A stretch of 63,841 nucleotides of DNA from an uncultured bacterium (GTDB lineage: Bacteria > Verrucomicrobiota > Kiritimatiellia > RFP12 > UBA1067), in the NCBI GenBank assembly GCA_903935195.1, contig CAIZQW010000287.1, forward strand, positions 1-63,841, given 5' to 3'. Position 1 is the stretch's first letter; each line of letters begins with the position of its first letter. Below are positions 31,985-44,125 of this stretch, piece after piece. Both the position numbers and the translations under genes were made by a program. The notes under the pieces were generated by a model, which had not been told where the DNA came from, did not search any database, and worked only from the letters and a program-made list of their open reading frames with translations.

Positions 31985-32596
31985 CTATTGCGCTGGCCAA
32001 ATATTCTCGCGATCAAGCCGTATTTCGATAACGGGAATATTAACGCCATATTTATCCGACAGTTTGTCAGCAAAAGAGTGTCTTAAATCTGGAAGGGTAC
32101 GCCAATGAGGTAAAATTTGTGCAACCTGGTGGCTAAACAAATCAAAATCCGCTTGTAATCGAGAATGAGGAACGAGAAGTCGTCCGGCAAATTCATTAGC
32201 CTCCTGTTCTATTCGATATCGTGCTGGGCTATCCTCGTGCAGCCAGCGGAAAAAGTCGGTAAAATTCGAGAATTTGTGTTTGGTTGCCTCCGCTTTATGC
32301 AGAACAAAGTGGCCCAATTCATGCGCGAACGTGAATCGTAACCGCTTTTGCTTCCAAACTGGCCCTTTCTCAAGATATTGATAGGCCTCTGCATCGACAT
32401 AGATGCCTGTGAAATTCTGAAGAAGCATCGCATCCATGTTATACTTGGCAAAGAGGTCGTCAAAGGGGATGATGTCTAACTTTAAATCGAGCTCAGCGAC
32501 GGTAAAGACATCGATGGGCAAAGAGGCCTGCGATCCAGAAAAATAGGTGTCGCGAAATTCCTCTGCCCGCTCCCAGATAGGGTCTATGCCGTTCAT
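31985..32596 (-). CDS. ImmA/IrrE family (M78) zinc metallopeptidase
   Basis: HEXXH in FAHELGHFVLH, plus the downstream EQEANEFAGRLLVP motif typical of ImmA/IrrE. Its start overlaps the stop of the XRE gene by 4 nt. Confidence 0.85.
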   Translation of the reverse strand: MNGIDPIWERAEEFRDTYFSGSQASLPIDVFTVAELDLKLDIIPFDDLFAKYNMDAMLLQNFTGIYVDAEAYQYLEKGPVWKQKRLRFTFAHELGHFVLHKAEATKHKFSNFTDFFRWLHEDSPARYRIEQEANEFAGRLLVPHSRLQADFDLFSHQVAQILPHWRTLPDLRHSFADKLSDKYGVNIPVIEIRLDRENIWPAQ

Positions 32597-32976
32597 TCAG
32601 CCGTCTCCTTGTCTGGCGAGTGAAGAGCCTTGAGATCCTGAATGAACTGCTCCATTTTCGCCTGATCCATTTCGTTACTTCTCACCGCACGGAAAAATGC
32701 CGGTAAGGCTTGGAGCAGAAGTCCATCCGTGGCAAGGTCCGATGGCAATTCACGCCTCGACAGAGCAGCCGCATCGAAGAACACCTGACGTTCGTTTGCC
32801 TCTAGCTTGAAAAATGAGGCCCACTGTTCCAAGACTCCAGTGTCTTTAGGTGCCGGATGGATGCCGCGTTCCATCTTGCTCCAGTTGCTTGGGTCGATGC
32901 CAAGCTCGGCACTGCACTGACGCAGTGTCAGCCGATTTGCGATACGTGTGTTTTTGAGTAATTCGCCAAAGTTCAT
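32593..32976 (-). CDS. XRE-family helix-turn-helix transcriptional regulator
   Basis: From ORF 32593..33012, trimmed to MNFGELLKNTRIANRLTLRQCSAELGIDPSNWSKMERG (HTH_3 pattern). Confidence 0.85.
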   Translation of the reverse strand: MNFGELLKNTRIANRLTLRQCSAELGIDPSNWSKMERGIHPAPKDTGVLEQWASFFKLEANERQVFFDAAALSRRELPSDLATDGLLLQALPAFFRAVRSNEMDQAKMEQFIQDLKALHSPDKETAE

Positions 32977-32989
32977 AATCCTCTCCCTT

Positions 32990-33012
32990 GTGTGGTAAAA
33001 ATAATACCACAC
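32990..33012. promoter_or_regulatory. Perfect inverted repeat GTGTGGTA-N7-TACCACAC just upstream of the XRE start (candidate operator)
   Basis: The arms are 32990-32997 and 33005-33012, 14-36 nt upstream of the ATG at 32976. No T-run follows on the minus strand. Confidence 0.4.
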
Positions 33013-33094: not shown

Positions 33095-33718
33095 TTAGTT
33101 CCCCTTCGGCACTACCACATACCCCTCTTTTGGTTCGCCGTAGCATGTGATTTGATTTCGCCTGAAGGCTTCTGCGGTAACAGCGCAGAGTGCGGCATCA
33201 ACGAGATCGATGTTGGTCAGGAGGGTGATGTCGAGTCCGAGCGTGCTCAATACCTCACGACGGACACGCGTCTTCGGATGGGCCGGAACAATACGACCGC
33301 TTAAGGCGCATACAATAGCATGGGGAAAGGTTTCGAAACAGACCCGTTTTGCCTGACGCTTTCCCGTGTACAATGAAAAGTGCTTGCCCAGGGCTTTAAA
33401 GAGTTTCTCGCCATTCAGCATCCAGCTATAAAAAGGATTTTCCTTGGCGCGCTCCCGGGTCGGCGTATAAAAACAGTGCATCCCCTCTTGATTCAAGAGG
33501 CGTTCCGCTTTCCGGTGTTTGCCCGCAACACTCCACATGCATGGCGCATCCACACCCACAACAGAGGCTTCCTGCTCCAGACACCACTCCATTATCGCCA
33601 TCGGATCCCAGTCTGTCTTTCTCCCGCAGATCTGCCCCTCACGCATCACTACCGCATGAAAGCCCTTCCGAGCGCCGCCTACATCGATTCCAATGACTGT
33701 GTTGTTTGAGCGTTTCAT
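33095..33718 (-). CDS. DUF429-family predicted RNase H-fold nuclease
   Basis: From ORF 33095..33820, trimmed to MKRSNNTVIGIDVGGARKGFHAVV. This IGID-x-GG-x-KG start is characteristic of DUF429. The start lies 1 nt after the stop of the upstream orphan gene. Confidence 0.7.
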   Translation of the reverse strand: MKRSNNTVIGIDVGGARKGFHAVVMREGQICGRKTDWDPMAIMEWCLEQEASVVGVDAPCMWSVAGKHRKAERLLNQEGMHCFYTPTRERAKENPFYSWMLNGEKLFKALGKHFSLYTGKRQAKRVCFETFPHAIVCALSGRIVPAHPKTRVRREVLSTLGLDITLLTNIDLVDAALCAVTAEAFRRNQITCYGEPKEGYVVVPKGN

Positions 33719-33719
33719 A

Positions 33720-34871
33720 TCATTTAGTAGCTGACTGCAAATGGTGGTGTTCATATTGTTTAAGCAGAAAACTATCAATTTTTTCAATGAGGGGGTTGAT
33801 CTCTGAAAGAAAAGGATCAAAGACTTTCAGATTAGCTTTGTGAAAACTATCAAGGTGCTCAACATATGCCTCGATCTTTCTAAAGCATTGTATCAAACAG
33901 TTCTTTGATATTTTAGATGTTCTTATCTTCGGTTTTTCGCAAGTATCAGGTTTCCGATTTAATAAAACAATTTTGTCAAGTATATGTAACAACTGAACTG
34001 TTGTCACAGATTGTGAAATCAATCCCGTTGGTGTATGGCCTTTATACTTGAATTCATAATACGCTTTGAAGAAGTTGTGCAAGAAGTTAAAATCAAGATT
34101 TTTATTTCTGAGTGCGCCATAGAAATAGCTCCTCCGCCCATCCTCGTTTTTTGTTTCAATTTTGCCTGATAAATCTCTTCTTTCGTTCGCGTCAAATATT
34201 CGAAAAACTTTGTACTTTTCGCCATCCAAAAAAAGTCCATCAAGATAGCTACGCATATATTGACCAAGGTCAAAGGACTTTACCGCTTCAGTAATTTTAA
34301 ATAACGCAGGATCTTGAAAAGCTTCCTTACAGGCGATGAATAACATAAGCGATTCTAGCCTAAAAAGTCGCTTTTCTTTAAATCCAAAATTCAAGAGTTT
34401 TCCATCTGCGTTAATTTTTGAAGGCAGGGTGTCTAGATAGGATCCCGGAACTTCGACATCAGAAAATTTGAGAGCTGTAGAGATTTGTTCATTACACAAT
34501 GATGCAAATCTACGACGAACGAGCTCATTAATATGCCATAGATAAACAAATCCAAACTGGTTAGCGTTCCAAAATGCGGCCCTTAAAATAAGTGGTTCGG
34601 CAAGTTGATTAGCAATTGATGGAGTAAGAGAATGAAATAAAGCATGAATAAGCATTAAAGCAGGCGGGGCCGTGTTCGCCATTGTTTTAGAAATAATCAA
34701 CCGAGTCTCATCCTCTGTTTGCTCTTTACCGCTTAAGCAGTTTCGAAAGAATCTAATTATTTTTAACTTGTCTCGCTTATCGCTGTTTTGAACTTTATCA
34801 AAAGCATCAAAGAGAATTAGCCAGTAAAATAAAGATCGGAACAACGTGAAATCATTTATTCTTTGATTCAT
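33720..34871 (-). CDS. Hypothetical 383-aa protein with no recognisable motif
   Basis: A long uninterrupted ORF in AT-rich DNA, tightly abutting the DUF429 gene. It looks helical, and I could find no catalytic motif. Confidence 0.7.
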   Translation of the reverse strand: MNQRINDFTLFRSLFYWLILFDAFDKVQNSDKRDKLKIIRFFRNCLSGKEQTEDETRLIISKTMANTAPPALMLIHALFHSLTPSIANQLAEPLILRAAFWNANQFGFVYLWHINELVRRRFASLCNEQISTALKFSDVEVPGSYLDTLPSKINADGKLLNFGFKEKRLFRLESLMLFIACKEAFQDPALFKITEAVKSFDLGQYMRSYLDGLFLDGEKYKVFRIFDANERRDLSGKIETKNEDGRRSYFYGALRNKNLDFNFLHNFFKAYYEFKYKGHTPTGLISQSVTTVQLLHILDKIVLLNRKPDTCEKPKIRTSKISKNCLIQCFRKIEAYVEHLDSFHKANLKVFDPFLSEINPLIEKIDSFLLKQYEHHHLQSATK

Positions 34872-35046
34872 TCGGTAATCTCGTATTGCGAAAAGTTACA
34901 AGAATACGTGCTTATTTACAATACAATAGTTTGGGAGGCCTAAATAATCCTTTGTTCAATGCATAACACTTTATAGAAGAACAACTTATAAAATCAAAAT
35001 GCTTACTATCGTGAGTCAACCGCTTTCGTATATTCTAATTCTTGTC

Positions 35047-35096
35047 GACCACAAAACAGTTTTGTGGTCCCAACAACAGAACAACAGGAACAACAA
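35047..35096. repeat. Perfect palindrome GACCACAAAAC-A-GTTTTGTGGTC followed by tandem AACAACAG words
   Basis: The palindrome is at 35047-35069. The words caacaacag, aacaacag and gaacaacaa are at 35071-35096. Confidence 0.85.
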
Positions 35097-35192
35097 ATGA
35101 ATACACTCAATAAAGGTGGCGGAGCAGGTTATCCCAGTACGACAGGCAGGCCATCGGGCGGTGGACGCGACAATGGATCCCGCGGTAAATAA
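35097..35192 (+). CDS. Possible 31-codon Gly-rich small ORF (MNTLNKGGGAGYPSTTGRPSGGGRDNGSRGK); may instead be a repeat-element core
   Basis: ATG at 35097, TAA at 35190-35192, with a terminator-like hairpin downstream. There is no clear RBS. It contains AGGTGGCGG (35114-35122), which is shared with the repeat core at 50981-50989. Confidence 0.2.
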   Translation: MNTLNKGGGAGYPSTTGRPSGGGRDNGSRGK

Positions 35193-35200
35193 ACCCAAGC

Positions 35201-35238
35201 TGGGCTTGCCGTTGCAAATCGGCACGCCCAGTTTCTTT
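35201..35238 (+). terminator. Terminator-like hairpin followed by GTTTCTTT
   Basis: TGGGCTTGCCG (35201-35211) pairs with CGGCACGCCCA (35220-35230) around an 8-nt loop, followed by a T-rich tail. Confidence 0.45.
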
Positions 35239-35373
35239 ACCCCTTGATTAGTCCACCTCTATCTCCGCCTTGAAATGCTGCCTCTCTTATCTCGAAATTG
35301 CTATTGTTCAAAGCACCCTTAAAATGGTACTTTAAAAATCTCTAACATACACAACGAAAGGAGGCAAGGCGTA

Positions 35374-35965: not shown

Positions 35966-36913
35966 TTATTCAGTCTGCTTTGTATCCGAGACCTTCTTCC
36001 TCGTCAAGCTGGACGCGTCTTCTATGGGAATTATTCCTTCTTCAGGTGGCATGTTGTCGGCAAATGTTTGGTAGCGGATGGAAGTGGGGGTTAAAAGATC
36101 GCAATTTCTTCCTGTACAGACGAAGTTAAACTTTTTTGTGATTACGCCTTGCGGAAAGAGTGGTTGGTCCGAATGATTGCTTCCTGTGAGTCGTCTAACT
36201 TTAGTCTTCCCGTCATCTAGCAGTTCTATGGTTGTGCCTGGAATCTCGATGAAATTACCATCAATGTGGACGGGGAGCTCCATTCTTGTCATCACGTATC
36301 GAGCAAAGACGTTGGAGAGATTTGTAACTCGCCAAAAGATATTGTTTTCTCCTCCCAACTGATTAAAATTCACATAGATCTCGGTTTTGACTTTAGGATT
36401 CTGCTTCCGGTTGAGAATGTCTAATACGGCTCGATGACCGATCGCATTGAGCTTAGAACCAATGCGTGTATAGTACTTTTTGTCATTAGCTTGGTGTGGT
36501 GCTACATCACTCGGCGGAATGTGAATGACGATCAGGCCCCGACCGGAGGAGAAGGAGTTGCCAGCAGGGTCCGTGACGACATGGATGTTAAGTTTTGGAA
36601 TCGATGGATCGGTTAGGTTCGGAATTATATCTTCAAGCCAGGATTTCAGACCCTGTTTACCTCCCTTTTTATTTAAGTCAACTCCTTCATCCAGTTCCAA
36701 AGGCTTTCCACCATGAGGATTACGGATTCCCAAAACTAAGAATCCCCCGTCGTAGTTGGCAAACGCAGAGACATATTCAGACAGTTCATCTAAGAATTTG
36801 CCGTTATCCACCCATCGACTATCCTTGAAATCAAGCCAATCAAACTCTCCGACCGGAAGGCCGCGAACATAATCCAAGTCCCATTGCGATATGTCTTTAA
36901 GCTGTGTATTCAT
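35966..36913 (-). CDS. AlbA_2 (Schlafen-like) DNA-binding domain protein with an unknown C-terminal domain
   Basis: FDWLDFKDSRW...LSEYVSAFANYDGGFLVLGIRNP matches the AlbA_2 core pattern E-x-EFK ... AFANT-GG-L-x-G. Confidence 0.7.
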   Translation of the reverse strand: MNTQLKDISQWDLDYVRGLPVGEFDWLDFKDSRWVDNGKFLDELSEYVSAFANYDGGFLVLGIRNPHGGKPLELDEGVDLNKKGGKQGLKSWLEDIIPNLTDPSIPKLNIHVVTDPAGNSFSSGRGLIVIHIPPSDVAPHQANDKKYYTRIGSKLNAIGHRAVLDILNRKQNPKVKTEIYVNFNQLGGENNIFWRVTNLSNVFARYVMTRMELPVHIDGNFIEIPGTTIELLDDGKTKVRRLTGSNHSDQPLFPQGVITKKFNFVCTGRNCDLLTPTSIRYQTFADNMPPEEGIIPIEDASSLTRKKVSDTKQTE

Positions 36914-36974
36914 AATTTTTATACAGAACCGTTAGTAACCCGCGATCGGCAAGCCGCATTTTGTTCATTCACTT

Positions 36975-37043
36975 TTAACTTTTTTGGCCCTTCCGCGAGC
37001 CTCCCACATCAATTCCGATGACTATAATATTTAAGGTTTTCAT
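36975..37043 (-). pseudogene. Decayed 5' stub of a second DUF429 gene (22 codons, then a stop)
   Basis: Hand translation gives MKTLNIIVIGIDVGGSRKGQKS*. It matches MKRSNNTVIGIDVGGARKG of the intact DUF429 gene at 14/19 aa and 44/58 nt by my own alignment. Confidence 0.7.
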
Positions 37044-37095
37044 GGGGGTAAAAAGAGGTGAAATAACTTGATGGGGCTTCTTGCCTTCCGCAGTA

Positions 37096-39030
37096 TTATT
37101 TTGATCGAGTAAGAATATTTGTTACACTCGGTGACTTCATAAGTGTACCCAGTGAGGGGTTCAGTTTCAGTGCTTTTTCAAAGTGCGGTTGACTTGCTGC
37201 AATCGCACCTGTTTGAGAGAGCGCAACAGCAAGGTAAAAATAACTTTCAGCATGTGAAGGATTAAGTTTGCAAGACTCTTGATAGTGTGCAATCGCTCCT
37301 TGCATATCACCCTGGTTAAGACATGAATTTCCCAAATTGAAACTGTACATGCCGAGGTTGTAGGTTGCCATTGTAGATGCCGGCAGTGAGGGTGGAAGGT
37401 TCGTAATAACTCGATAGTCCGCCATTGCCTTTTCGATATCACCTTTCTTGATATAGACGGAGGCGCGATTGCCATACGCGGCACAATCTTTTGGATTGTT
37501 GGTTATGACCTTTGAGAAATATTCGAGTGCTGCATCTTCACGCCCACTTATTGCATCGTCCAGTGCCTCGTAAGTGGACAGCAAAGAAACGTTACCTTCC
37601 GTTCGCAATGATGTGTTCAGTCGCATCACTTCCTTTAAATCCCGAGCTGCCTGACTATATTTACTTTCTTTAGCAAAAGCTAAACTTCGCGCGATATATG
37701 CTTGTTCCATGTCTGGTCGCCTAGCAATAGCTTTATTAAATTCAAAAATTGCATTGCTAATAGAATTTTCGTTAAATAACGCCACACCTTTACTGTAGTA
37801 CGGCCATTCATTTGTATAGCCTAATAGAATTGCCTGATCGAAATCCCGTCGCGCTTCACTATATCGGTCCAACTCGCTCAATACTACTCCCCTCTCGTAT
37901 ATCAGACTTGCTTTGTTAGTGCCTGAGAGGGAAATGGCCTTAGAATAATTGGTGAGTGCTTCGTCTTTACGACCAAGGCTTTGAAGACATTGAGCCATAT
38001 GGGCATACGTTAAGGGATCGTCAGGCAGTAACGAAAGTGCCTTCAAGCTGTCTTGATAGGCATCTTGTAAACGGCCTTTCATTAACCGTATGCCGGTTCG
38101 GTTGCCATAAGCTACGCCAAGAGATGGATTCATTTGAATTGCACGTGTTAATTCTCTTTCTGCCGAATCAAAGTCCCCCGCCAAAATCAAACTGTTCGCA
38201 TTTGTAACTCTATAAGCTCCCGCGATCGGTGTGGTGCTCATTGAACCCAGCATGTGCATTGTTCCAGGGCCAAGTGACCTTATTCCCATTGCATCAAACC
38301 TTGGGAATTCGAGTCCAGATGAACCATCCTCAAGCATTAAACTTGCTGGAGGCGCGTTTGTGAAAAAAGAAACCGAAGAAAGGAAGTAATGTTCGCCTGG
38401 CGGCAAAGTTTTAAATGATTGATTACGGATACGAAATCCGGCATTCGCTTTTGGCGGAAGATGTGAAATTGTTAGCCAAAAAGCCTCATGATCTGTGGTG
38501 TCTCGTCCATGCATAACCGTTCCGTGAAATGCAATGAGTGCCTGATTAAATGGATCGCCAGAAATTGGTTGGGGCATCGCTGCGTTTGACGGTACATCAA
38601 TCATCTCCACCCCTACATCATTATTTGTCAATGAAAGTGTTGAAGAGCTGAGTTGAAGCTTAACGGTTACCTGATAAAGATCCACCTCGCCAATATTTCG
38701 GATAAAGAAGTTGTTTATGGTCTTTTTGGTGCCCAAACCGAGATCGATTCGCGTAGACGATAGGACTATGACTTCTTTAGTCTTTGGGAAATAGTAACTA
38801 CGTAGACCCAGTGTATCGTTCCAAAAACCAATGACAAGCGGAATCATAGTAAAAAACATGAACCAAAAATATTTCAAAAACCGAGTTTTTTGGGATATGG
38901 GTTGTTGCTCAAATGGTGTTGATGTCGGAGCGGGCACGGGCGTTTTGTGCGGCGCTTTCAAATGAACCTTCGGAACCCATTTTTTCCGTTTTTTCTTTTT
39001 GTTTTTGCTCATTTGTTGCGCAACTTTCAC
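37096..39030 (-). CDS. Membrane-anchored TPR-repeat protein
   Basis: 644 aa. It has a Lys-rich N-terminus and a TM helix (FLKYFWFMFFTMIPLVIGFW). An unknown domain of about 230 aa follows, then about 10 TPR-like repeats (AYGNR..., AESYFYLAVAL...). Confidence 0.75.
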   Translation of the reverse strand: MKVAQQMSKNKKKKRKKWVPKVHLKAPHKTPVPAPTSTPFEQQPISQKTRFLKYFWFMFFTMIPLVIGFWNDTLGLRSYYFPKTKEVIVLSSTRIDLGLGTKKTINNFFIRNIGEVDLYQVTVKLQLSSSTLSLTNNDVGVEMIDVPSNAAMPQPISGDPFNQALIAFHGTVMHGRDTTDHEAFWLTISHLPPKANAGFRIRNQSFKTLPPGEHYFLSSVSFFTNAPPASLMLEDGSSGLEFPRFDAMGIRSLGPGTMHMLGSMSTTPIAGAYRVTNANSLILAGDFDSAERELTRAIQMNPSLGVAYGNRTGIRLMKGRLQDAYQDSLKALSLLPDDPLTYAHMAQCLQSLGRKDEALTNYSKAISLSGTNKASLIYERGVVLSELDRYSEARRDFDQAILLGYTNEWPYYSKGVALFNENSISNAIFEFNKAIARRPDMEQAYIARSLAFAKESKYSQAARDLKEVMRLNTSLRTEGNVSLLSTYEALDDAISGREDAALEYFSKVITNNPKDCAAYGNRASVYIKKGDIEKAMADYRVITNLPPSLPASTMATYNLGMYSFNLGNSCLNQGDMQGAIAHYQESCKLNPSHAESYFYLAVALSQTGAIAASQPHFEKALKLNPSLGTLMKSPSVTNILTRSK

Positions 39031-39085
39031 AAGCGATACTTATGGATTGAAACTGCTAGCCTAATCCTCCGATGTAACACGTTTC

Positions 39086-41578
39086 TCACTCCCCCCAAAC
39101 CCGGGCGAGGGTAGTTTGGATTTTCTTCTCGAAGCGGGTGATGAGGTCGCGGTTGGCGTTGACAAGGGCTTGCTCAGCTTCAATCTCCGCAACAATTGCA
39201 CGCTGCGTCTCGATAGGAGGGAGGGGGATTTTCTGTTCCCGAACAAAGGAGAGATTCGCCATGCGAAACTTGCCTTCGCCTAACTTCAAAAACTCTGGAT
39301 AAAGTTGCTGTGCAGCATGAAATAGATATACCGGCTCCAGCACCTCCCGTGATTTGGGATAAATACCGGCGATGTTCTGATTCGTCGTGGATTCAAACTT
39401 CAAGATGGCGGTCTTGCCAATCGTTGCTCCTACCAACGCTATCAAAGTGGTATCTTTTGGAAGGATCTTAGCGGCAGAGTTCTTCAAGCCAGCATCGGTG
39501 ATGAACTCCTCAGCTTGTGTCACCTCTCCATCTTTACACACCGTTGAGCCAACCCAAGGAATGTGCCCGTTCCAGTAGGAATCCTCGGCACGGCTGGGCG
39601 TACCTCCTGAGCGGACCTCGCAAATTTTCTCAAGTGGCTCCATCGGCCACGTTGGATCGACGGGGATGTGGGGGCGGTAGTTGTTGAGGACGGTGCGGGC
39701 ACCGTTGATGATTTTCTGGTAGCCCTCAATCTCTGCCACGATCTCTTTCTGGATTTCAAGTGGAGGGAGGGGAATTTGGAACTGTTCTACATATCCCTTC
39801 GGCACTCGTTGTAGCCCACCTGTCCCAGTCATTTGTGCAATAGCAGATTCCCTGAAAGTCGAATGCATTAAGCAAAAGTAAATGTATTCGGCAAGAACGC
39901 AGTTGCTTGGTCGAAAAACATAAAATTCACTTGATCCAAAGCCCGTGCTGTTAACTAAGCCTTTGGCAATACCCGCTTTACCATTTTCAAAACAAGGTGT
40001 GACCTTTGCGAGCAGCACATCACCATCAGCAAAATAGGTATAACTTGCGCCCAACTCGCTGATTTTACGGGTTTCCTTGGCCTGAAACATTATTCTGTTT
40101 TCACCAATATCACTCATGGGCACAAAGGAAACAAGCGTGTCGGGCGGCAAGGTGAGCCCTTCGCGTTTTGGCGGGTTGATCGTGCAAACCGTTGCGAGCG
40201 GAACATGAGGGAAATGGGCACTGGATGCAGCCCCTTCCCGATACCGTTCTCCGCTCAGATTGTAGTCGCCATTGGTGGCGATCTTTTCTTTGGGAATGAC
40301 AAGACCTGTGGTTAGCGTGAGTTCGTCTGCGGACTGTCCACGGCGGAGGGCTTGGAGATAGGTATGTAGTTCGGCTTTGACTTGCGGCAGATCGTTCTTG
40401 GTGATTTCACGGCGCTGGGCGCCGAGGCCGAAGCCGTCATTTTCGACCTTGAAGAAGGCGATGGTTTTTGCCTTTTTAGCAAGGGTCTTATCGAGGATGA
40501 GGATCGATGTCTTAACGCCTGAGTAGGGATTGAAGCAACCTGCCGGAAGGGATATAACCGCGACAAGGGAGTTTTCGACGAGCATCTTGCGCAGGCTCTT
40601 GTAAGCATCCTGGCTCTGGAAGATGATGCCTTCAGGGACGATGATGCCGGCGCGTCCGTTCGGCGTGAGGTGTTCAGCCATGTAGTCCACGAAAAGGACT
40701 TCGCTGCGCTTGGCCTGGATGGAGAAGCGCTTGTGGGGCTTGATACCACCCTTTGGCGACATGAAGGGCGGGTTGGCTAAAATTACATCGGCGAAGTCGT
40801 TCCAGCGCTCTTCGGAGGTGAGGGTGTCGTACTCGTAGATATGCGGGGCGGCGAAGCCGTGCAGGTAGAGGTTCACGAGCGAGAGGCGCACCATATCAGG
40901 CGAGATGTCGTAGCCCTTGATATTTTCAGCGAGGCGACCACGCTCTTCAGGGGTGAGGGAGGAGTGGCCTTTGGCGTGGGTGTTGGCCTTGAGGATGTGC
41001 TTGTAGGCGGAGATGAGGAATCCAGCCGTGCCACAGGCGGGATCGAGGATGGTCTCGTTCTTCTTGGGATCAAGGACTTCGACCATGAAATCAATAATAT
41101 GGCGCGGGGTGCGGAACTGTCCAGCGTCGCCTTGGGAACCAAGGACACTGAGAAGGTATTCAAAGGCATCGCCGAGGCGTTCGCTGTGGTCGTAGCTGAA
41201 TTCATCAATGATCTTGAGGAACGCCTTGAGCGTCTCGGGGTCGCGATAGGGCAGATAGGCGTTCTTGAAGATATCGCGGAAGAGCAGCGGGATGCCGGGA
41301 TTTGCGGGCATCTTGTCGATAGCCTCTGCGTAAAGGGCGAGGGTCTCGTGTCCGCCCAGCCCAGAACGCATGAGCTTGGCCCAACCGTAGCGGGCGAAGT
41401 CGCCTGCGAAAAACTTACGCTTGCCGCCCAGCTCCGCAGATTCGGCATCCATGTCGTCCATGAATTTGTAAATCAGGGCGATGGTGATCTGTTCGACTTG
41501 GGATTTGGGGTCTGGTACTTTGCCCACAAGGATGTCGCGGGCGGAGTCGATGCGGCGCTTGGTCTCGGTGTCTAACAT
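39086..41578 (-). CDS. hsdM: Type I restriction-modification methyltransferase fused to a specificity subunit (HsdM-HsdS)
   Basis: N6-adenine MTase motifs are present (DPACGTAGFL, ILANPPFMSP). Two TRD regions follow, each closed by an HsdS conserved helix: PLPPLEIQKEIVAEIEGYQK and PLPPIETQRAIVAEIEAEQA. Confidence 0.85.
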   Translation of the reverse strand: MLDTETKRRIDSARDILVGKVPDPKSQVEQITIALIYKFMDDMDAESAELGGKRKFFAGDFARYGWAKLMRSGLGGHETLALYAEAIDKMPANPGIPLLFRDIFKNAYLPYRDPETLKAFLKIIDEFSYDHSERLGDAFEYLLSVLGSQGDAGQFRTPRHIIDFMVEVLDPKKNETILDPACGTAGFLISAYKHILKANTHAKGHSSLTPEERGRLAENIKGYDISPDMVRLSLVNLYLHGFAAPHIYEYDTLTSEERWNDFADVILANPPFMSPKGGIKPHKRFSIQAKRSEVLFVDYMAEHLTPNGRAGIIVPEGIIFQSQDAYKSLRKMLVENSLVAVISLPAGCFNPYSGVKTSILILDKTLAKKAKTIAFFKVENDGFGLGAQRREITKNDLPQVKAELHTYLQALRRGQSADELTLTTGLVIPKEKIATNGDYNLSGERYREGAASSAHFPHVPLATVCTINPPKREGLTLPPDTLVSFVPMSDIGENRIMFQAKETRKISELGASYTYFADGDVLLAKVTPCFENGKAGIAKGLVNSTGFGSSEFYVFRPSNCVLAEYIYFCLMHSTFRESAIAQMTGTGGLQRVPKGYVEQFQIPLPPLEIQKEIVAEIEGYQKIINGARTVLNNYRPHIPVDPTWPMEPLEKICEVRSGGTPSRAEDSYWNGHIPWVGSTVCKDGEVTQAEEFITDAGLKNSAAKILPKDTTLIALVGATIGKTAILKFESTTNQNIAGIYPKSREVLEPVYLFHAAQQLYPEFLKLGEGKFRMANLSFVREQKIPLPPIETQRAIVAEIEAEQALVNANRDLITRFEKKIQTTLARVWGE

Positions 41579-41584
41579 GGTTTC

Positions 41585-44125
41585 CTATGCTACGAATTGA
41601 TTGAGGCTGACGTAGTCCTTGATGTATTCGGGGATGAGATCGCGATACTTTTCAGGGACGGCCTTGAAGTCGCGTGTGGAAAAAACAGGATTCGTGGCCA
41701 GTTCGGTGAAGTCGTGGCTTTCGATGATGAGGCGGATCTGATCGCTGATAATGTAGGCCTTGAAATAGGTCTTGAGGGCCGGGATAGCCTCAGCTTCTTC
41801 GGGCTTGATGTCGGAGACGAACTTGGCGAACTCCTCTTCCAGTAGCTCGTCCTTGGACTTGAAACGGGGGATGAGTCCGAAGATTTTTTCGAGGATCTCG
41901 CGCAGCGTCAGTCGGCGGTCCACAGTCGCCGCCCTGCGCAATTTGTCGAGCGTGTAGTACTGCTCCGGCTTGTCGAAGACCTCTTGGTTGACGTACTCAA
42001 TGACACGATCCCATTGGCCCGCTTCAACGGCCTTGGCGATGGTTGCGTTTTCTCGGATGGACGATTCGAATTTCGCGAAGAACATGCGGTCGATCTTCAT
42101 GCCCTCGTAGCCGACGGCTTCTTCTTTGATAGATGAGATGATGTCCGAACCCAGATGCTCATACGCTTCTGGCTTGGCTGGCGGTTCTTCGCCACCGCCA
42201 CCGTCCTTGCCTTTGCCTGTGGGACGCGGCAGGACGAGCACTTCGTCGTAGTTAAAATCCTCTTCGAAATATTCGCAGTTACCAAAGAAGTCAAAAAGCT
42301 TGAACGCCTCTTTATGTGGCTTGACGACATTTTCCTTGAGTTCCACATCAAAAAGCTGGTCCCGAAAATCGTGTGTCCGGGTTCCGCGTCCCTTGATCTG
42401 GATGAAATCAGTCGGCGAGAAGATCGGACGGAAAAGGCCGAGGTTGAGGATGTCCGGGCAGTCATACCCTGTGGTCATCATGCCGACCGTGACGCAGACG
42501 CGCGCTTTGCTGGTCTTGTAGGCGGACAAGAAGTTGGCAGAGCCCAGGAGATTGTTGTTGCTAAAATTGATAGTGAACTGCTGGGCGTCTGGAATCTGAG
42601 AGGTGACCTGGATGGCAAAGTCTGACTGGTATTTCCCTGGAAACATTTTTTCCGCCATGAGATTCAGGATGTTGGCCAGTTTAGCCGCATGGTTCTGGCT
42701 GACGGCATAGATGATGGACTTGCCGATCTCACCGCTGACAGGATCGCGCAGCGCGTTTTCAAGAAAGGTCTTGCAGAAGAGTCCATTGGTGGCATCGGAA
42801 AAGAAGCGCTTTTCAAATTCGCGCTGCTTGTAAGCCTCTTCCTGGTCCTCGCCGGTGTCATCCGTGAAGGTAACGACAAAGCCTTCCTCTGAGAGCAGTT
42901 GCGTGGTGATCTCCGTCCGGGCATCCACGACAACGGGGTTGATCAGAAAGCCATCCTTCACACCGTCGAGCAATGAATATCTGAATGTGGGTTGGCTCTT
43001 CTCGCAACCGAAGGTGCGGTAGGTATCGAGAAGCAGGCGGCGCTCAGCTTCGCGCGGATCGCGAGTTGTCGGGGCGACCTTGTCGAAATGCTTGAGATAG
43101 TCGCGGGGTGTCGCGGTAAGTCCCAGCTTGTAGCCGATGAAATAGTCAAACACCGCGCGGGCATTTCCTCCGATCGAGCGGTGCGCTTCGTCAGAAATGA
43201 CGAGGTCAAAGTCGGTTGGCGAGAAGAGCTTCTGGTACTTGTTGTTGAAGAGCAGGGACTGGACTGTGGTGACGACGACCTCCGCCCGCCGCCAGTCATC
43301 GCGGTTCTCCTTGTAGATGACGGTCTGGAAATCAGCGGACAAAAGAGCAGAGAAGGCCTTTTTGGCTTGGTCTTCCAATTCAAGACGGTCTACCAGAAAG
43401 AGTACGCGCCGGACATTGCCCGAACGTAGAAAGAGCTTTATGATGGCGGCGGCTGTCAGCGTCTTGCCCGTACCAGTGGCCATTTCGAAAAGGAACCGGT
43501 CGTGTCCATCTTTGACTGCGGCCTGCAAGCCCTGGACCGCTTTCATCTGATAGGGACGAAGGAAGCGGAGTTTATTGGCCTGAATATAGCCCGGCCGTTC
43601 CGTCTCCTTCTTCCACGCCGCATCTGACTGATAAAGAGGCCGCTGGGTCAGGACGATATAATCGGCCCCCACCTGTTCTGTGACCAGACGGTTCGCATCA
43701 GGGGTGACCTTATGGTATCCAATGACCGACTCCGGCGTTGGAAAAGAGGTGATGATGTAGGGGCTGCCGCGCTCCAGATCCCAAAAGTAGTGGAGGTTCC
43801 CGTTTGAGAGGATGACAAAGCGGCAATTCTGAGAACGGGCATATTTTCGCGCTTGTTCTTTGCCCACGAACGGATTTTTGTTTTCCGCCTTAGCTTCAAG
43901 AACAATGAGCGGAAAGCCTTTTGCATCGAGGAGGAGAAAGTCAATGAACCCTTTTGAAACCTTTTCAAAGTCATTACCGAGTTCGTCGAGCGCATTCTGT
44001 TTCAGTGTGACACTGGGTTCGAGTTGGATATTGGCGGGGGCGTCACCCTTAGGAAAAAAACGCCAACCTGCAGCTTCCAGCAGGTTGTTAATCTTAATAC
44101 GGGCGTTTGCTTCTTTTTCCGACAA
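41585..44125 (-). CDS. hsdR: Type I restriction enzyme R subunit (HsdR family: PD-(D/E)xK nuclease plus SF2 helicase)
   Basis: N-terminal IDFLLLD...VLEAKA nuclease motif, Walker A MATGTGKT, DEAH box ISDEAHRS, and an EcoEI_R_C-like C-terminus. Confidence 0.85.
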   Translation of the reverse strand: MSEKEANARIKINNLLEAAGWRFFPKGDAPANIQLEPSVTLKQNALDELGNDFEKVSKGFIDFLLLDAKGFPLIVLEAKAENKNPFVGKEQARKYARSQNCRFVILSNGNLHYFWDLERGSPYIITSFPTPESVIGYHKVTPDANRLVTEQVGADYIVLTQRPLYQSDAAWKKETERPGYIQANKLRFLRPYQMKAVQGLQAAVKDGHDRFLFEMATGTGKTLTAAAIIKLFLRSGNVRRVLFLVDRLELEDQAKKAFSALLSADFQTVIYKENRDDWRRAEVVVTTVQSLLFNNKYQKLFSPTDFDLVISDEAHRSIGGNARAVFDYFIGYKLGLTATPRDYLKHFDKVAPTTRDPREAERRLLLDTYRTFGCEKSQPTFRYSLLDGVKDGFLINPVVVDARTEITTQLLSEEGFVVTFTDDTGEDQEEAYKQREFEKRFFSDATNGLFCKTFLENALRDPVSGEIGKSIIYAVSQNHAAKLANILNLMAEKMFPGKYQSDFAIQVTSQIPDAQQFTINFSNNNLLGSANFLSAYKTSKARVCVTVGMMTTGYDCPDILNLGLFRPIFSPTDFIQIKGRGTRTHDFRDQLFDVELKENVVKPHKEAFKLFDFFGNCEYFEEDFNYDEVLVLPRPTGKGKDGGGGEEPPAKPEAYEHLGSDIISSIKEEAVGYEGMKIDRMFFAKFESSIRENATIAKAVEAGQWDRVIEYVNQEVFDKPEQYYTLDKLRRAATVDRRLTLREILEKIFGLIPRFKSKDELLEEEFAKFVSDIKPEEAEAIPALKTYFKAYIISDQIRLIIESHDFTELATNPVFSTRDFKAVPEKYRDLIPEYIKDYVSLNQFVA

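What the first reader, a model, noticed from the sequence alone, without database searches (positions are those of the whole stretch)
36975..37043. Decayed second DUF429 gene directly behind the TPR gene: two partner-plus-DUF429 modules in one island
Seen in the sequence:
- A 22-codon ORF starts 52 nt after the stop of the TM-TPR gene. It reads MKTLNIIVIGIDVGGSRKGQKS*.
- It aligns to the N-terminus of the intact DUF429 gene (MKRSNNTVIGIDVGGARKG) at 14/19 aa and 44/58 nt by hand alignment. It is therefore a diverged paralogue, not a recent duplication.
- The rest of the gene is missing, and the AlbA_2 gene begins 61 nt further on.

Inference:
- The island once carried TPR-protein plus DUF429, parallel to the surviving orphan-383 plus DUF429 pair.
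- A conserved nuclease behind a variable upstream partner is the pattern expected for a sensor/effector system with swappable sensors.
- It also marks a recombination or replacement scar, where the AlbA_2 / 193-aa segment came in.
Basis: partly seen in the sequence, partly recalled or inferred. Interest (0 to 1): 0.6.

Follow-up and report, generated by a model that had tools for sequence, protein, structure and literature searches.

The report
Dead second DUF429 nuclease gene stub
The 22-codon reading frame is the leftover of a second DUF429 nuclease gene that once sat behind the TPR gene in an anti-phage island, which is ordinary gene decay, though it shows how such islands stack and then prune their gene units.

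Summary
ORF 37043-36975 (minus strand) reads MKTLNIIVIGIDVGGSRKGQKS*. It matches codons 1-19 of the intact DUF429 gene (33718-33095) at 14/19 aa and 44/57 nt. It is the best non-self hit to a DUF429 family profile in the whole 3.6-Mb genome.

The decisive evidence comes from two metagenome contigs, L010 and L011. Both carry the same hsdMS-TPR synteny (TPR 80-82% identical). Both have a different piece of DUF429, codons 18-49 or 18-56 (tblastn E = 3e-12 and 1e-11), at the same place directly behind the TPR stop. So a TPR-DUF429 pair existed and has decayed independently.

The stub probably keeps both tips of the gene. Its tail reads PKKLKV, like family C-termini VVVPKGKLK. This suggests an internal deletion of roughly 0.55 kb rather than truncation by the AlbA_2 segment. 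A stub in a same-genus genome clearly has this two-tip form.

Related islands stack cargo units that each end in a DUF429 gene behind a type I restriction system. One contig has two intact copies plus a stub.

The "swappable sensor plus shared nuclease" idea is not supported as an obligate pairing. TPR stays under purifying selection without its neighbour, and DUF429 also occurs alone.

The scan had already described this island's frame (e1-3329685). This is an ordinary pseudogene of modest interest.

The parts
36975..37043 (-). 22-codon stub ORF MKTLNIIVIGIDVGGSRKGQKS*
36987..37043 (-). Codons 1-19 of a second DUF429 gene. This is beta-strand 1 with the invariant Asp of GIDVGG.
   Evidence: G10, D12, V13 and G19 are invariant in the family.
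36960..36987 (-). Probable 3' tip of the same gene. CCAAAAAAGTTAAAAGTGAA reads PKKLKV in its own frame, and the junction shifts the frame, which gives QKS*.
   Evidence: p about 0.02-0.03; family C-termini VVVPKGKLK.... The parallel G002 stub was shown at p<=0.002.
37044..37095 (-). Native 52-nt spacer between TPR and the stub. Homology to L010/L011 ends 4 nt after the TPR stop. An 8-mer GCGGAAGG (37091-37084) recurs in stub codons 16-19 (36996-36989).
36914..36974 (-). 61-nt spacer to the AlbA_2 start. The junction with the AlbA_2 segment must lie here or further on.
37096..39030 (-). TM-TPR gene, the former upstream neighbour. It is intact and under purifying selection.
35966..36913 (-). AlbA_2/Schlafen-like gene. 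It was found in no other of 319 genomes of the order.
33095..33718 (-). Intact DUF429 gene (207 aa). It has short direct repeats near both ends: GAAGGG at nt 51 and 612, and GGTAGTG at nt 66 and 603.
33720..34871 (-). 383-aa orphan directly upstream of the intact DUF429
39086..44125 (-). hsdR and the hsdM-S fusion (type I R-M) that anchor the island
31985..33012 (-). XRE and ImmA/IrrE (CapP-like) pair downstream of the intact DUF429

Best explanation
The stub is a pseudogene. It is the remains of a second, diverged DUF429 (RNase H-fold, predicted nuclease) gene that used to follow the TM-TPR gene.

The island lies behind a type I restriction-modification operon. Related strains hold different cargo there, and cargo units typically end in a DUF429 gene. 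Recombination between strains stacked two such units in this genome: TPR-DUF429, and AlbA_2/193-aa/383-aa-DUF429.

One DUF429 copy was then lost. The loss was most likely a deletion of roughly 0.55 kb inside the gene, which joined codon 19 to the last few codons. The native upstream spacer, start codon, first 19 codons and the gene's 3' tip remain.

Shown:
- The stub is homologous to DUF429.
- A DUF429 gene was ancestrally present behind TPR.
- DUF429 has decayed repeatedly and independently in relatives.
- Stacked units occur elsewhere.

Inferred:
- The internal-deletion route (about 65% likely).
- That redundancy with the second copy allowed the loss.

The 22-aa product is not expected to function.
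For: 1. Homology of the stub.
2. L010 and L011 begin with the hsdMS 3' end, followed by TPR at 80-82% aa identity. Directly after the TPR stop they carry DUF429 codons 18-49 and 18-56 (E = 3e-12 and 1e-11). Our copy keeps codons 1-19, so the common ancestor had both parts.
3. The stub and these remnants score best against the same DUF429 subclade as the intact gene, and they are diverged from it.
4. The G002 stub (codons 1-24) is followed by sequence homologous to a DUF429 3' end. The alignment score is 50 against a shuffle maximum of 28. So two-tip internal deletions do occur in this family.
5. Our stub's tail reads PKKLKV, like family C-termini VVVPKGKLK. At the DNA level p is about 0.02-0.03. 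The intact gene carries matching short repeats near both ends.
6. Contexts of the form hsdR-hsdMS-variable cargo-DUF429 occur in L027, L029 and the P0013 contig. L025 has two intact copies plus a stub.
7. Further DUF429 remnants occur in G004 and G106.
8. An intact paralogue is visible in the same genome or contig for our stub, for the G002 stub, for the L025 stub, and (at least its first 58 codons) for the L011 remnant.
Against: - No intact TPR-DUF429 pair was found in any collection.
- The 3'-tip reading of our stub rests on about 20 A-rich bases and is only marginally significant.
- The L025 stub (codons 1-29) is followed by unrelated DNA, so simple truncation also occurs in this family.
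- The order of events cannot be reconstructed. XRE-ImmA lies after DUF429 here but before it in L011 and G002.
Confidence: 0.72

Rival explanations
1. Truncation scar. The AlbA_2/193-aa segment was inserted into, or replaced, the body of the TPR-linked DUF429 gene after codon 19. Everything after 36987 is then incoming DNA.
For: AlbA_2 is unique to this genome among 319 genomes of the order and has lower GC than the frame genes. The L025 stub is a plain 5' fragment followed by unrelated DNA. The significance of the tail match is marginal.
Against: The first roughly 20 bases after the break read PKKLKV and match DUF429 3' ends at the position expected. A same-genus stub demonstrably keeps both tips.
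Confidence: 0.2
2. Chance resemblance. A short ORF happens to contain the common RNase H/ASKHA-type IGIDVGG strand motif.
For: Only 19 residues match. The genome-wide E-value is 0.16, and GIDxGG-like motifs occur in many families.
Against: It is the best non-self hit in the genome. It aligns from Met1, on the same strand, 3.3 kb from the intact gene. Core changes are mostly synonymous. A significant DUF429 remnant lies at the same position behind homologous TPR genes in two contigs.
Confidence: 0.03
3. att-type direct repeat. A site-specific element (AlbA_2 to the 383-aa gene) integrated into the 5' end of DUF429 and duplicated its target, like islands that integrate into tRNA genes.
For: The stub and the intact gene's 5' end are direct repeats flanking 3.3 kb of low-GC cargo.
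Against: The repeats are only 77% identical. Homology starts exactly at the ATG and follows codon structure. No integrase or recombinase gene lies in the segment. Break points differ among stubs, at codons 19, 24 and 29.
Confidence: 0.03
4. A retained functional element. The stub survives because its promoter, ribosome-binding site and short ORF now drive or tune expression of AlbA_2 as a leader peptide or upstream ORF.
For: The native upstream spacer and start codon are kept. A weak sigma-70-like match lies at 37052-37024. AlbA_2 starts 61 nt downstream on the same strand.
Against: The promoter count is no higher than in shuffled sequence. There is no Rfam match. No second genome carries this stub, so conservation cannot be shown.
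Confidence: 0.05

Closest known systems
Gene remnants in variable defence islands, such as solitary restriction genes beside methylase stubs or deleted type IIG enzyme stubs
   Same: A short 5' fragment of a defence-island gene, left by deletion, sits next to intact neighbours. An intact paralogue lies nearby.
   Different: The remnant probably keeps both gene tips. The same gene family has decayed independently at the same position in three lineages.
DUF429 / PF04250 (COG2410, COG4328, COG4923). Predicted RNase H-like nucleases of the RuvC/YqgF clade (PMC3985635). Matches the PADLOC candidate model PDC-S44.
   Same: The intact neighbour scores 80 bits against PF04250 (cutoff 23) and E = 1.7e-14 against PDC-S44. 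The stub carries the family's first strand with the invariant Asp.
   Different: The stub lacks more than 90% of the domain. The family itself has no tested function and no close solved structure.
Variable loci exchanged through conserved flanking genes, such as cargo embedded in type I R-M loci like prr (hsdM-hsdS-prrC-hsdR)
   Same: Different cargo lies between a conserved type I R-M operon and a conserved end gene. hsdS 3' remnants and DUF429 stubs mark the joints of stacked units.
   Different: The cargo sits downstream of hsdMS rather than inside the operon, except in G035. The right-hand frame gene is DUF429, often followed by an HTH/ImmA regulator.
CapH/CapP-type (XRE plus ImmA/IrrE protease) regulators of defence operons
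   Same: The ImmA protein matches the PADLOC capP model (E = 4e-16). An XRE/ImmA pair or fusion lies next to DUF429 in most contexts.
   Different: It is co-directional and lies downstream or upstream of DUF429, not divergent from a CBASS operon. Regulation of DUF429 by this pair is untested.

Membership tests
DUF429 (PF04250) | N-terminal strand motif GIDxGG with the invariant Asp, followed by RKG | tested here: met
   Stub residues 10-19 are GIDVGGSRKG. G10, D12, V13 and G19 are invariant in 35 family members. The stub is the best non-self profile hit in the genome.
DUF429 (PF04250) | Complete RNase H-like domain of about 200 residues, including the second acidic site (VDAP) and the C-terminal helix | tested here: not met
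   Only 19 codons, plus a probable tip of about 6 codons, remain. There is no other remnant in the window. It is therefore a remnant and not a functional member.
DUF429 (PF04250) | Score above the Pfam gathering threshold | tested here: not met
   The intact gene scores 80 bits against a cutoff of 23. The stub scores 14.2 bits on a subfamily profile.
Pseudogene / gene remnant | A homologue of part of a gene, with evidence from the same position in relatives that a fuller gene stood there | tested here: met
   L010 and L011 carry codons 18-49 and 18-56 behind homologous TPR genes in the same hsdMS-TPR synteny.
Two-gene sensor-effector defence system (TPR sensor plus DUF429 nuclease) | Conserved co-occurrence and co-retention of both genes across genomes | tested here: not met
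   No intact pair was found. TPR is kept under selection while DUF429 decays. Shorter TPR homologues lack DUF429. DUF429 occurs alone.
Two-gene sensor-effector defence system (TPR sensor plus DUF429 nuclease) | Anti-phage activity that needs both proteins | not testable with these tools
   This needs expression and phage challenge experiments.
Site-specific integrative element (att duplication) | Near-identical direct repeats at both ends and a recombinase gene | tested here: not met
   The repeats are 77% identical and follow codon structure. No recombinase domain is present in 33.7-37.0 kb.
PADLOC PDC-S44 (candidate single-gene defence system) | Match of the protein to the PDC-S44 model | tested here: met
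   The intact DUF429 matches PDLC05019 at E = 1.7e-14. This applies to the intact gene only.

The most novel reading that the evidence does not exclude
DUF429 genes may be more than passengers. They could be the right-hand handle of a modular cassette system behind type I R-M operons. Each unit would run from the hsdS 3' end through cargo to DUF429. Units would be exchanged and stacked through these two conserved ends. The RuvC-like DUF429 protein would either serve as a shared effector for varied upstream partners or take part in resolving the exchange. The stubs and the hsdS 3' remnants would then be the joints between cassettes.
Probability: 0.12. Interest if true: 0.65.

Novelty: new member of a known kind. 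Interest (0 to 1): 0.3.

Why it matters
The stub itself has no likely function. Its value is as a marker of history. It shows that this island was built by stacking cargo units that each ended in a DUF429 gene, and that surplus DUF429 copies are repeatedly deleted.

It also bears on whether DUF429, an untested candidate defence nuclease (PDC-S44), needs its upstream neighbour. The TPR gene has been kept without it, which argues against an obligate pair.

It also gives a concrete set of loci for testing DUF429 function: our island, G002, L025, L027, L029 and L031.

Tried and rejected
- Sensitive tblastn (word size 2) of the intact protein against the whole window and genome found no further remnants. 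This includes the 500-nt gap at 34872-35373 and the ImmA-sulfatase gap.
- A chimeric query (stub plus L011 remnant plus the rest of the gene) was used to fish for an intact TPR-linked DUF429. It gave one candidate and no hit.
- Two scans of genome contigs for TPR relatives found none.
- The metagenome scan found only more distant TPR homologues without DUF429.
- The TPR N-terminal domain was found in no other of 221 genomes of the family.
- AlbA_2 was found in no other of 319 genomes of the order.
- I tested whether L010/L011 arose by deletion between the two GCGGAAGG copies. The observed junction does not fit.
- There is no hsdS 3' remnant behind our stub, unlike in L025.
- Rfam and promoter/terminator scans of 36700-37300 gave nothing above background.
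- A PDB sequence search for DUF429 gave nothing meaningful.
- A fold search of a confident model (pLDDT 93.7) gave only weak RNase H-superfamily hits: UvrC C-terminal domain, RNase H1, terminase nuclease, and the Cas12 and IS110 RuvC domains, all with E > 1e-3.
- Most full-text hits for 'DUF429' were in fact for DUF4297.

Full report
**Observation**

On the minus strand, ORF 37043-36975 reads MKTLNIIVIGIDVGGSRKGQKS*.
- It starts 52 nt after the stop of the 644-aa TM-TPR gene (39030-37096).
- It ends 61 nt before the ATG of the 315-aa AlbA_2 gene (36913-35966).
- The intact DUF429 gene (33718-33095, 207 aa) scores 80 bits against PF04250, cutoff 23. It begins MKRSNNTVIGIDVGGARKG.
- Identity over codons 1-19 is 14/19 aa and 44/57 nt.

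**Is the match more than chance?**

- tblastn gives E = 0.001 within the window and 0.16 genome-wide.
- A profile was built from 119 family members, without the genome's own gene. It was run with filters off against all 123,324 six-frame peptides of the 3.6-Mb assembly. The stub is the best non-self hit (E = 0.16; next best 8.3).
- blastn against the 5' end of another DUF429 gene (L025) gives 80% identity over 61 nt (E = 9e-10 in a database of about 200 kb).
- Homology begins exactly at the ATG. The upstream regions are unrelated.
- In the conserved core (codons 8-19) the differences are four synonymous changes and one replacement, at a position that varies in the family. The other replacements fall in the variable codons 3-7.
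- This is the signature of a protein-coding paralogue that diverged under selection and was broken later.

**Evidence from relatives**

A search with the TPR N-terminal 300 residues found only five relatives. The two closest are P0002 and P0003 (80-82% identity over the full 644 aa). They lie on short metagenome contigs L010 and L011.
- Both contigs start with the 3' end of hsdMS directly before TPR, so they share our hsdMS-TPR synteny.
- Immediately after the TPR stop, both carry a different piece of DUF429.
  - L011 2067-2162 encodes QGFHEVVLREGQLCGRKIDYDPLVMVEWCLNE, which is codons 18-49 (tblastn E = 3e-12).
  - L010 2227-2343 covers codons 18-56 (E = 1e-11).
- In those contigs the spacer and roughly the first 12-17 codons are gone. 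In our window the spacer and codons 1-19 are kept and the body is gone.
- The ancestor of these loci therefore had a fuller DUF429 gene behind TPR. Different deletions have since removed different parts.
- The stub and the remnants score best against the same subclade as our intact gene (members at 75% identity or more) but are diverged from every member.
- No intact TPR-linked copy was found.

**How the gene was lost**

A complete same-genus genome (G002) has a stub MPRSNNTVIGIDVGGERKGFHAVVPGEES* after XRE-ImmA.
- The sequence after its break point aligns to the 3' end of a DUF429 gene (the G004 remnant). The score is 50, against a maximum of 28 in 500 dinucleotide shuffles.
- That stub is therefore an internal deletion that kept both tips. 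The join is at GTGGTG (codons 22-24, AVV), which also occurs as GTGGTNGTG at codons 200-202 (VVV).

Our stub's tail, CCAAAAAAGTTAAAAGTGAA (36987-36968), looks similar.
- In its own frame it reads PKKLKV, which resembles family C-termini such as VVVPKGKLKGKS, VVVPKGKLRVKR and VVVPRERKLKG.
- The DNA match to DUF429 3' ends has p of about 0.02-0.03, both by shuffling and by comparison with A-rich 28-mers of the window.
- Our intact gene carries short direct repeats near both ends: GAAGGG at nt 51 and 612 (RKG and PKG), and GGTAGTG at nt 66 and 603. A slip between the first pair would give MKRSNNTVIGIDVGGARKGN*, very like what is seen.

I rate the internal-deletion reading at about 65%. The alternative is truncation by the incoming AlbA_2 segment, and it remains possible. 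A third stub, in L025 (codons 1-29), is followed by unrelated DNA.

**The island**

The order on the minus strand is: hsdR, hsdM-S fusion, TPR, stub, AlbA_2, a 193-aa gene on the plus strand, a 383-aa orphan, DUF429, XRE, ImmA, sulfatase.
- The frame genes have genome-like GC of 52-54%. The cargo has 36-45%.
- L027 is the same chromosomal slot. Its order is hsdR (97% identical), hsdMS, DUF4062, DUF4145, HD, a 169-aa gene, DUF429, an HTH/ImmA fusion, a 166-aa gene and a double sulfatase.
- L029 and the P0013 contig also show hsdR-hsdMS-cargo-DUF429.
- L031 and G002 locus A show an hsdS 3' remnant, GmrSD_N, AAA_15, a 318-aa gene and DUF429.
- L025 has a DUF429 stub, then an hsdS 3' remnant, then two further units, each ending in an intact DUF429.
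- In G035, from another family of the order, DUF429 sits between hsdS and hsdR.
- The genes directly upstream of DUF429 belong to at least six unrelated families.
- DUF429 is rare in the order, with 10 of 319 genomes matching at E <= 0.01 (7 at E < 1e-5, own genome included). Several hits are remnants, in G002, G004 and G106.

This agrees with the earlier follow-up on this island (e1-3329685). It adds that units are stacked and that the surplus end gene is then pruned.

**Function**

- DUF429 was assigned to the RuvC/YqgF clade of the RNase H-like superfamily and predicted to be a nuclease (PMC3985635).
- A model with pLDDT 93.7 shows the expected strand-helix order. It gives only weak RNase H-superfamily fold matches.
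- The protein matches the PADLOC single-gene candidate PDC-S44.
- TPR has dN/dS of 0.23-0.30 among the three lineages in which its neighbouring DUF429 is dead.
- The TPR gene is itself a recombination mosaic, with 53-99% identity along its length.
- More distant TPR homologues (56-63% identity, shorter C-terminus) sit in other contexts without DUF429.
- DUF429 also occurs with no partner.

An obligate TPR-DUF429 sensor-effector pair is therefore not supported. Use of the remaining DUF429 copy in trans cannot be excluded.

**Verdict**

The stub is a real and correctly read gene remnant. The inferred former TPR-DUF429 unit is well supported. The mechanism of loss is probably an internal deletion rather than a scar from the arrival of AlbA_2. 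The swappable-sensor idea remains speculation. This is ordinary decay in a defence island. Its modest added interest lies in what it reveals about how these restriction-anchored islands are assembled.

**Limits**

L010 and L011 are short contigs. The tail evidence rests on about 20 bases.

Noticed in passing
L006 1501-1590 (G002:C1:3127734-3127825): A same-genus complete genome has its own DUF429 stub (codons 1-24 plus the gene's 3' tip) after XRE-ImmA and before a sulfatase. An intact copy lies 27 kb away behind an hsdS 3' remnant.
   Followed up: yes
L025 1701-1787 and 2306-2413: One metagenome contig holds a third DUF429 stub (codons 1-29), then a remnant of the last 36 codons of hsdS, then two units each ending in an intact DUF429. 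This looks like stacked 'hsdS 3' end-cargo-DUF429' units.
   Followed up: partly
L031 3430-3537; L007 7098-7197 (G002:C1:3097098-3097197): Remnants of the hsdMS 3' end (87-100% aa identity to ours, 89% nt for the G002 copy) precede the GmrSD_N/AAA_15/318-aa/DUF429 unit, at sites that lack a type I operon. The whole unit seems to have been moved together with its left flank.
   Followed up: partly
window 37096-39330 versus L010 and L011: Identity along the TPR gene is strongly mosaic. It is 96-99% to L011 over about 450 nt near the 5' end and falls to 53-65% in the middle. The DUF429 remnant region of L010 and L011 is 96% identical between the two contigs. This points to frequent recombination among these populations.
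   Followed up: partly
window 37084-37091 and 36989-36996: The 8-mer GCGGAAGG lies 5 nt after the TPR stop, right where homology to L010/L011 ends. It occurs again in stub codons 16-19. A simple deletion between the two copies does not reproduce the L010/L011 junction.
   Followed up: partly
window 32985-33010; L010 about 2445-2470; L011 about 2255-2280; G002:C1 about 3126690-3126712: The palindrome GTGTGGTA(A/T)TATTTTTACCACAC upstream of the XRE gene is conserved in all four loci. Homology among the loci starts just before it. It is a likely operator of the XRE/ImmA module.
   Followed up: no
L027 10797-12417; L031 7736-9356; L025 7333-8953; L019 757-1869: A 370-aa HTH/ImmA fusion follows DUF429 in four contexts, and a conserved 166-aa protein (86-95% identical) follows it in three of them (L027, L031, L025). 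Our window has a split XRE plus ImmA instead. In L011 and G002 the XRE-ImmA pair precedes a DUF429 copy.
   Followed up: partly
L018 10234-18293 (G035:C5): In another family of the order, DUF429 is embedded in a type I operon: hsdM, a 355-aa gene, hsdS, DUF429, a 346-aa gene, hsdR. The link between DUF429 and type I R-M therefore reaches beyond this genus.
   Followed up: no
L010 2878-3917; L025 8979-10648; L026 275-1944: A recurrent module is DUF3037, then a protein of about 190-204 aa (89-100% identical), then DUF429 with an 8-nt overlap. In L010 the same two genes are followed instead by a four-helix-bundle gene.
   Followed up: no
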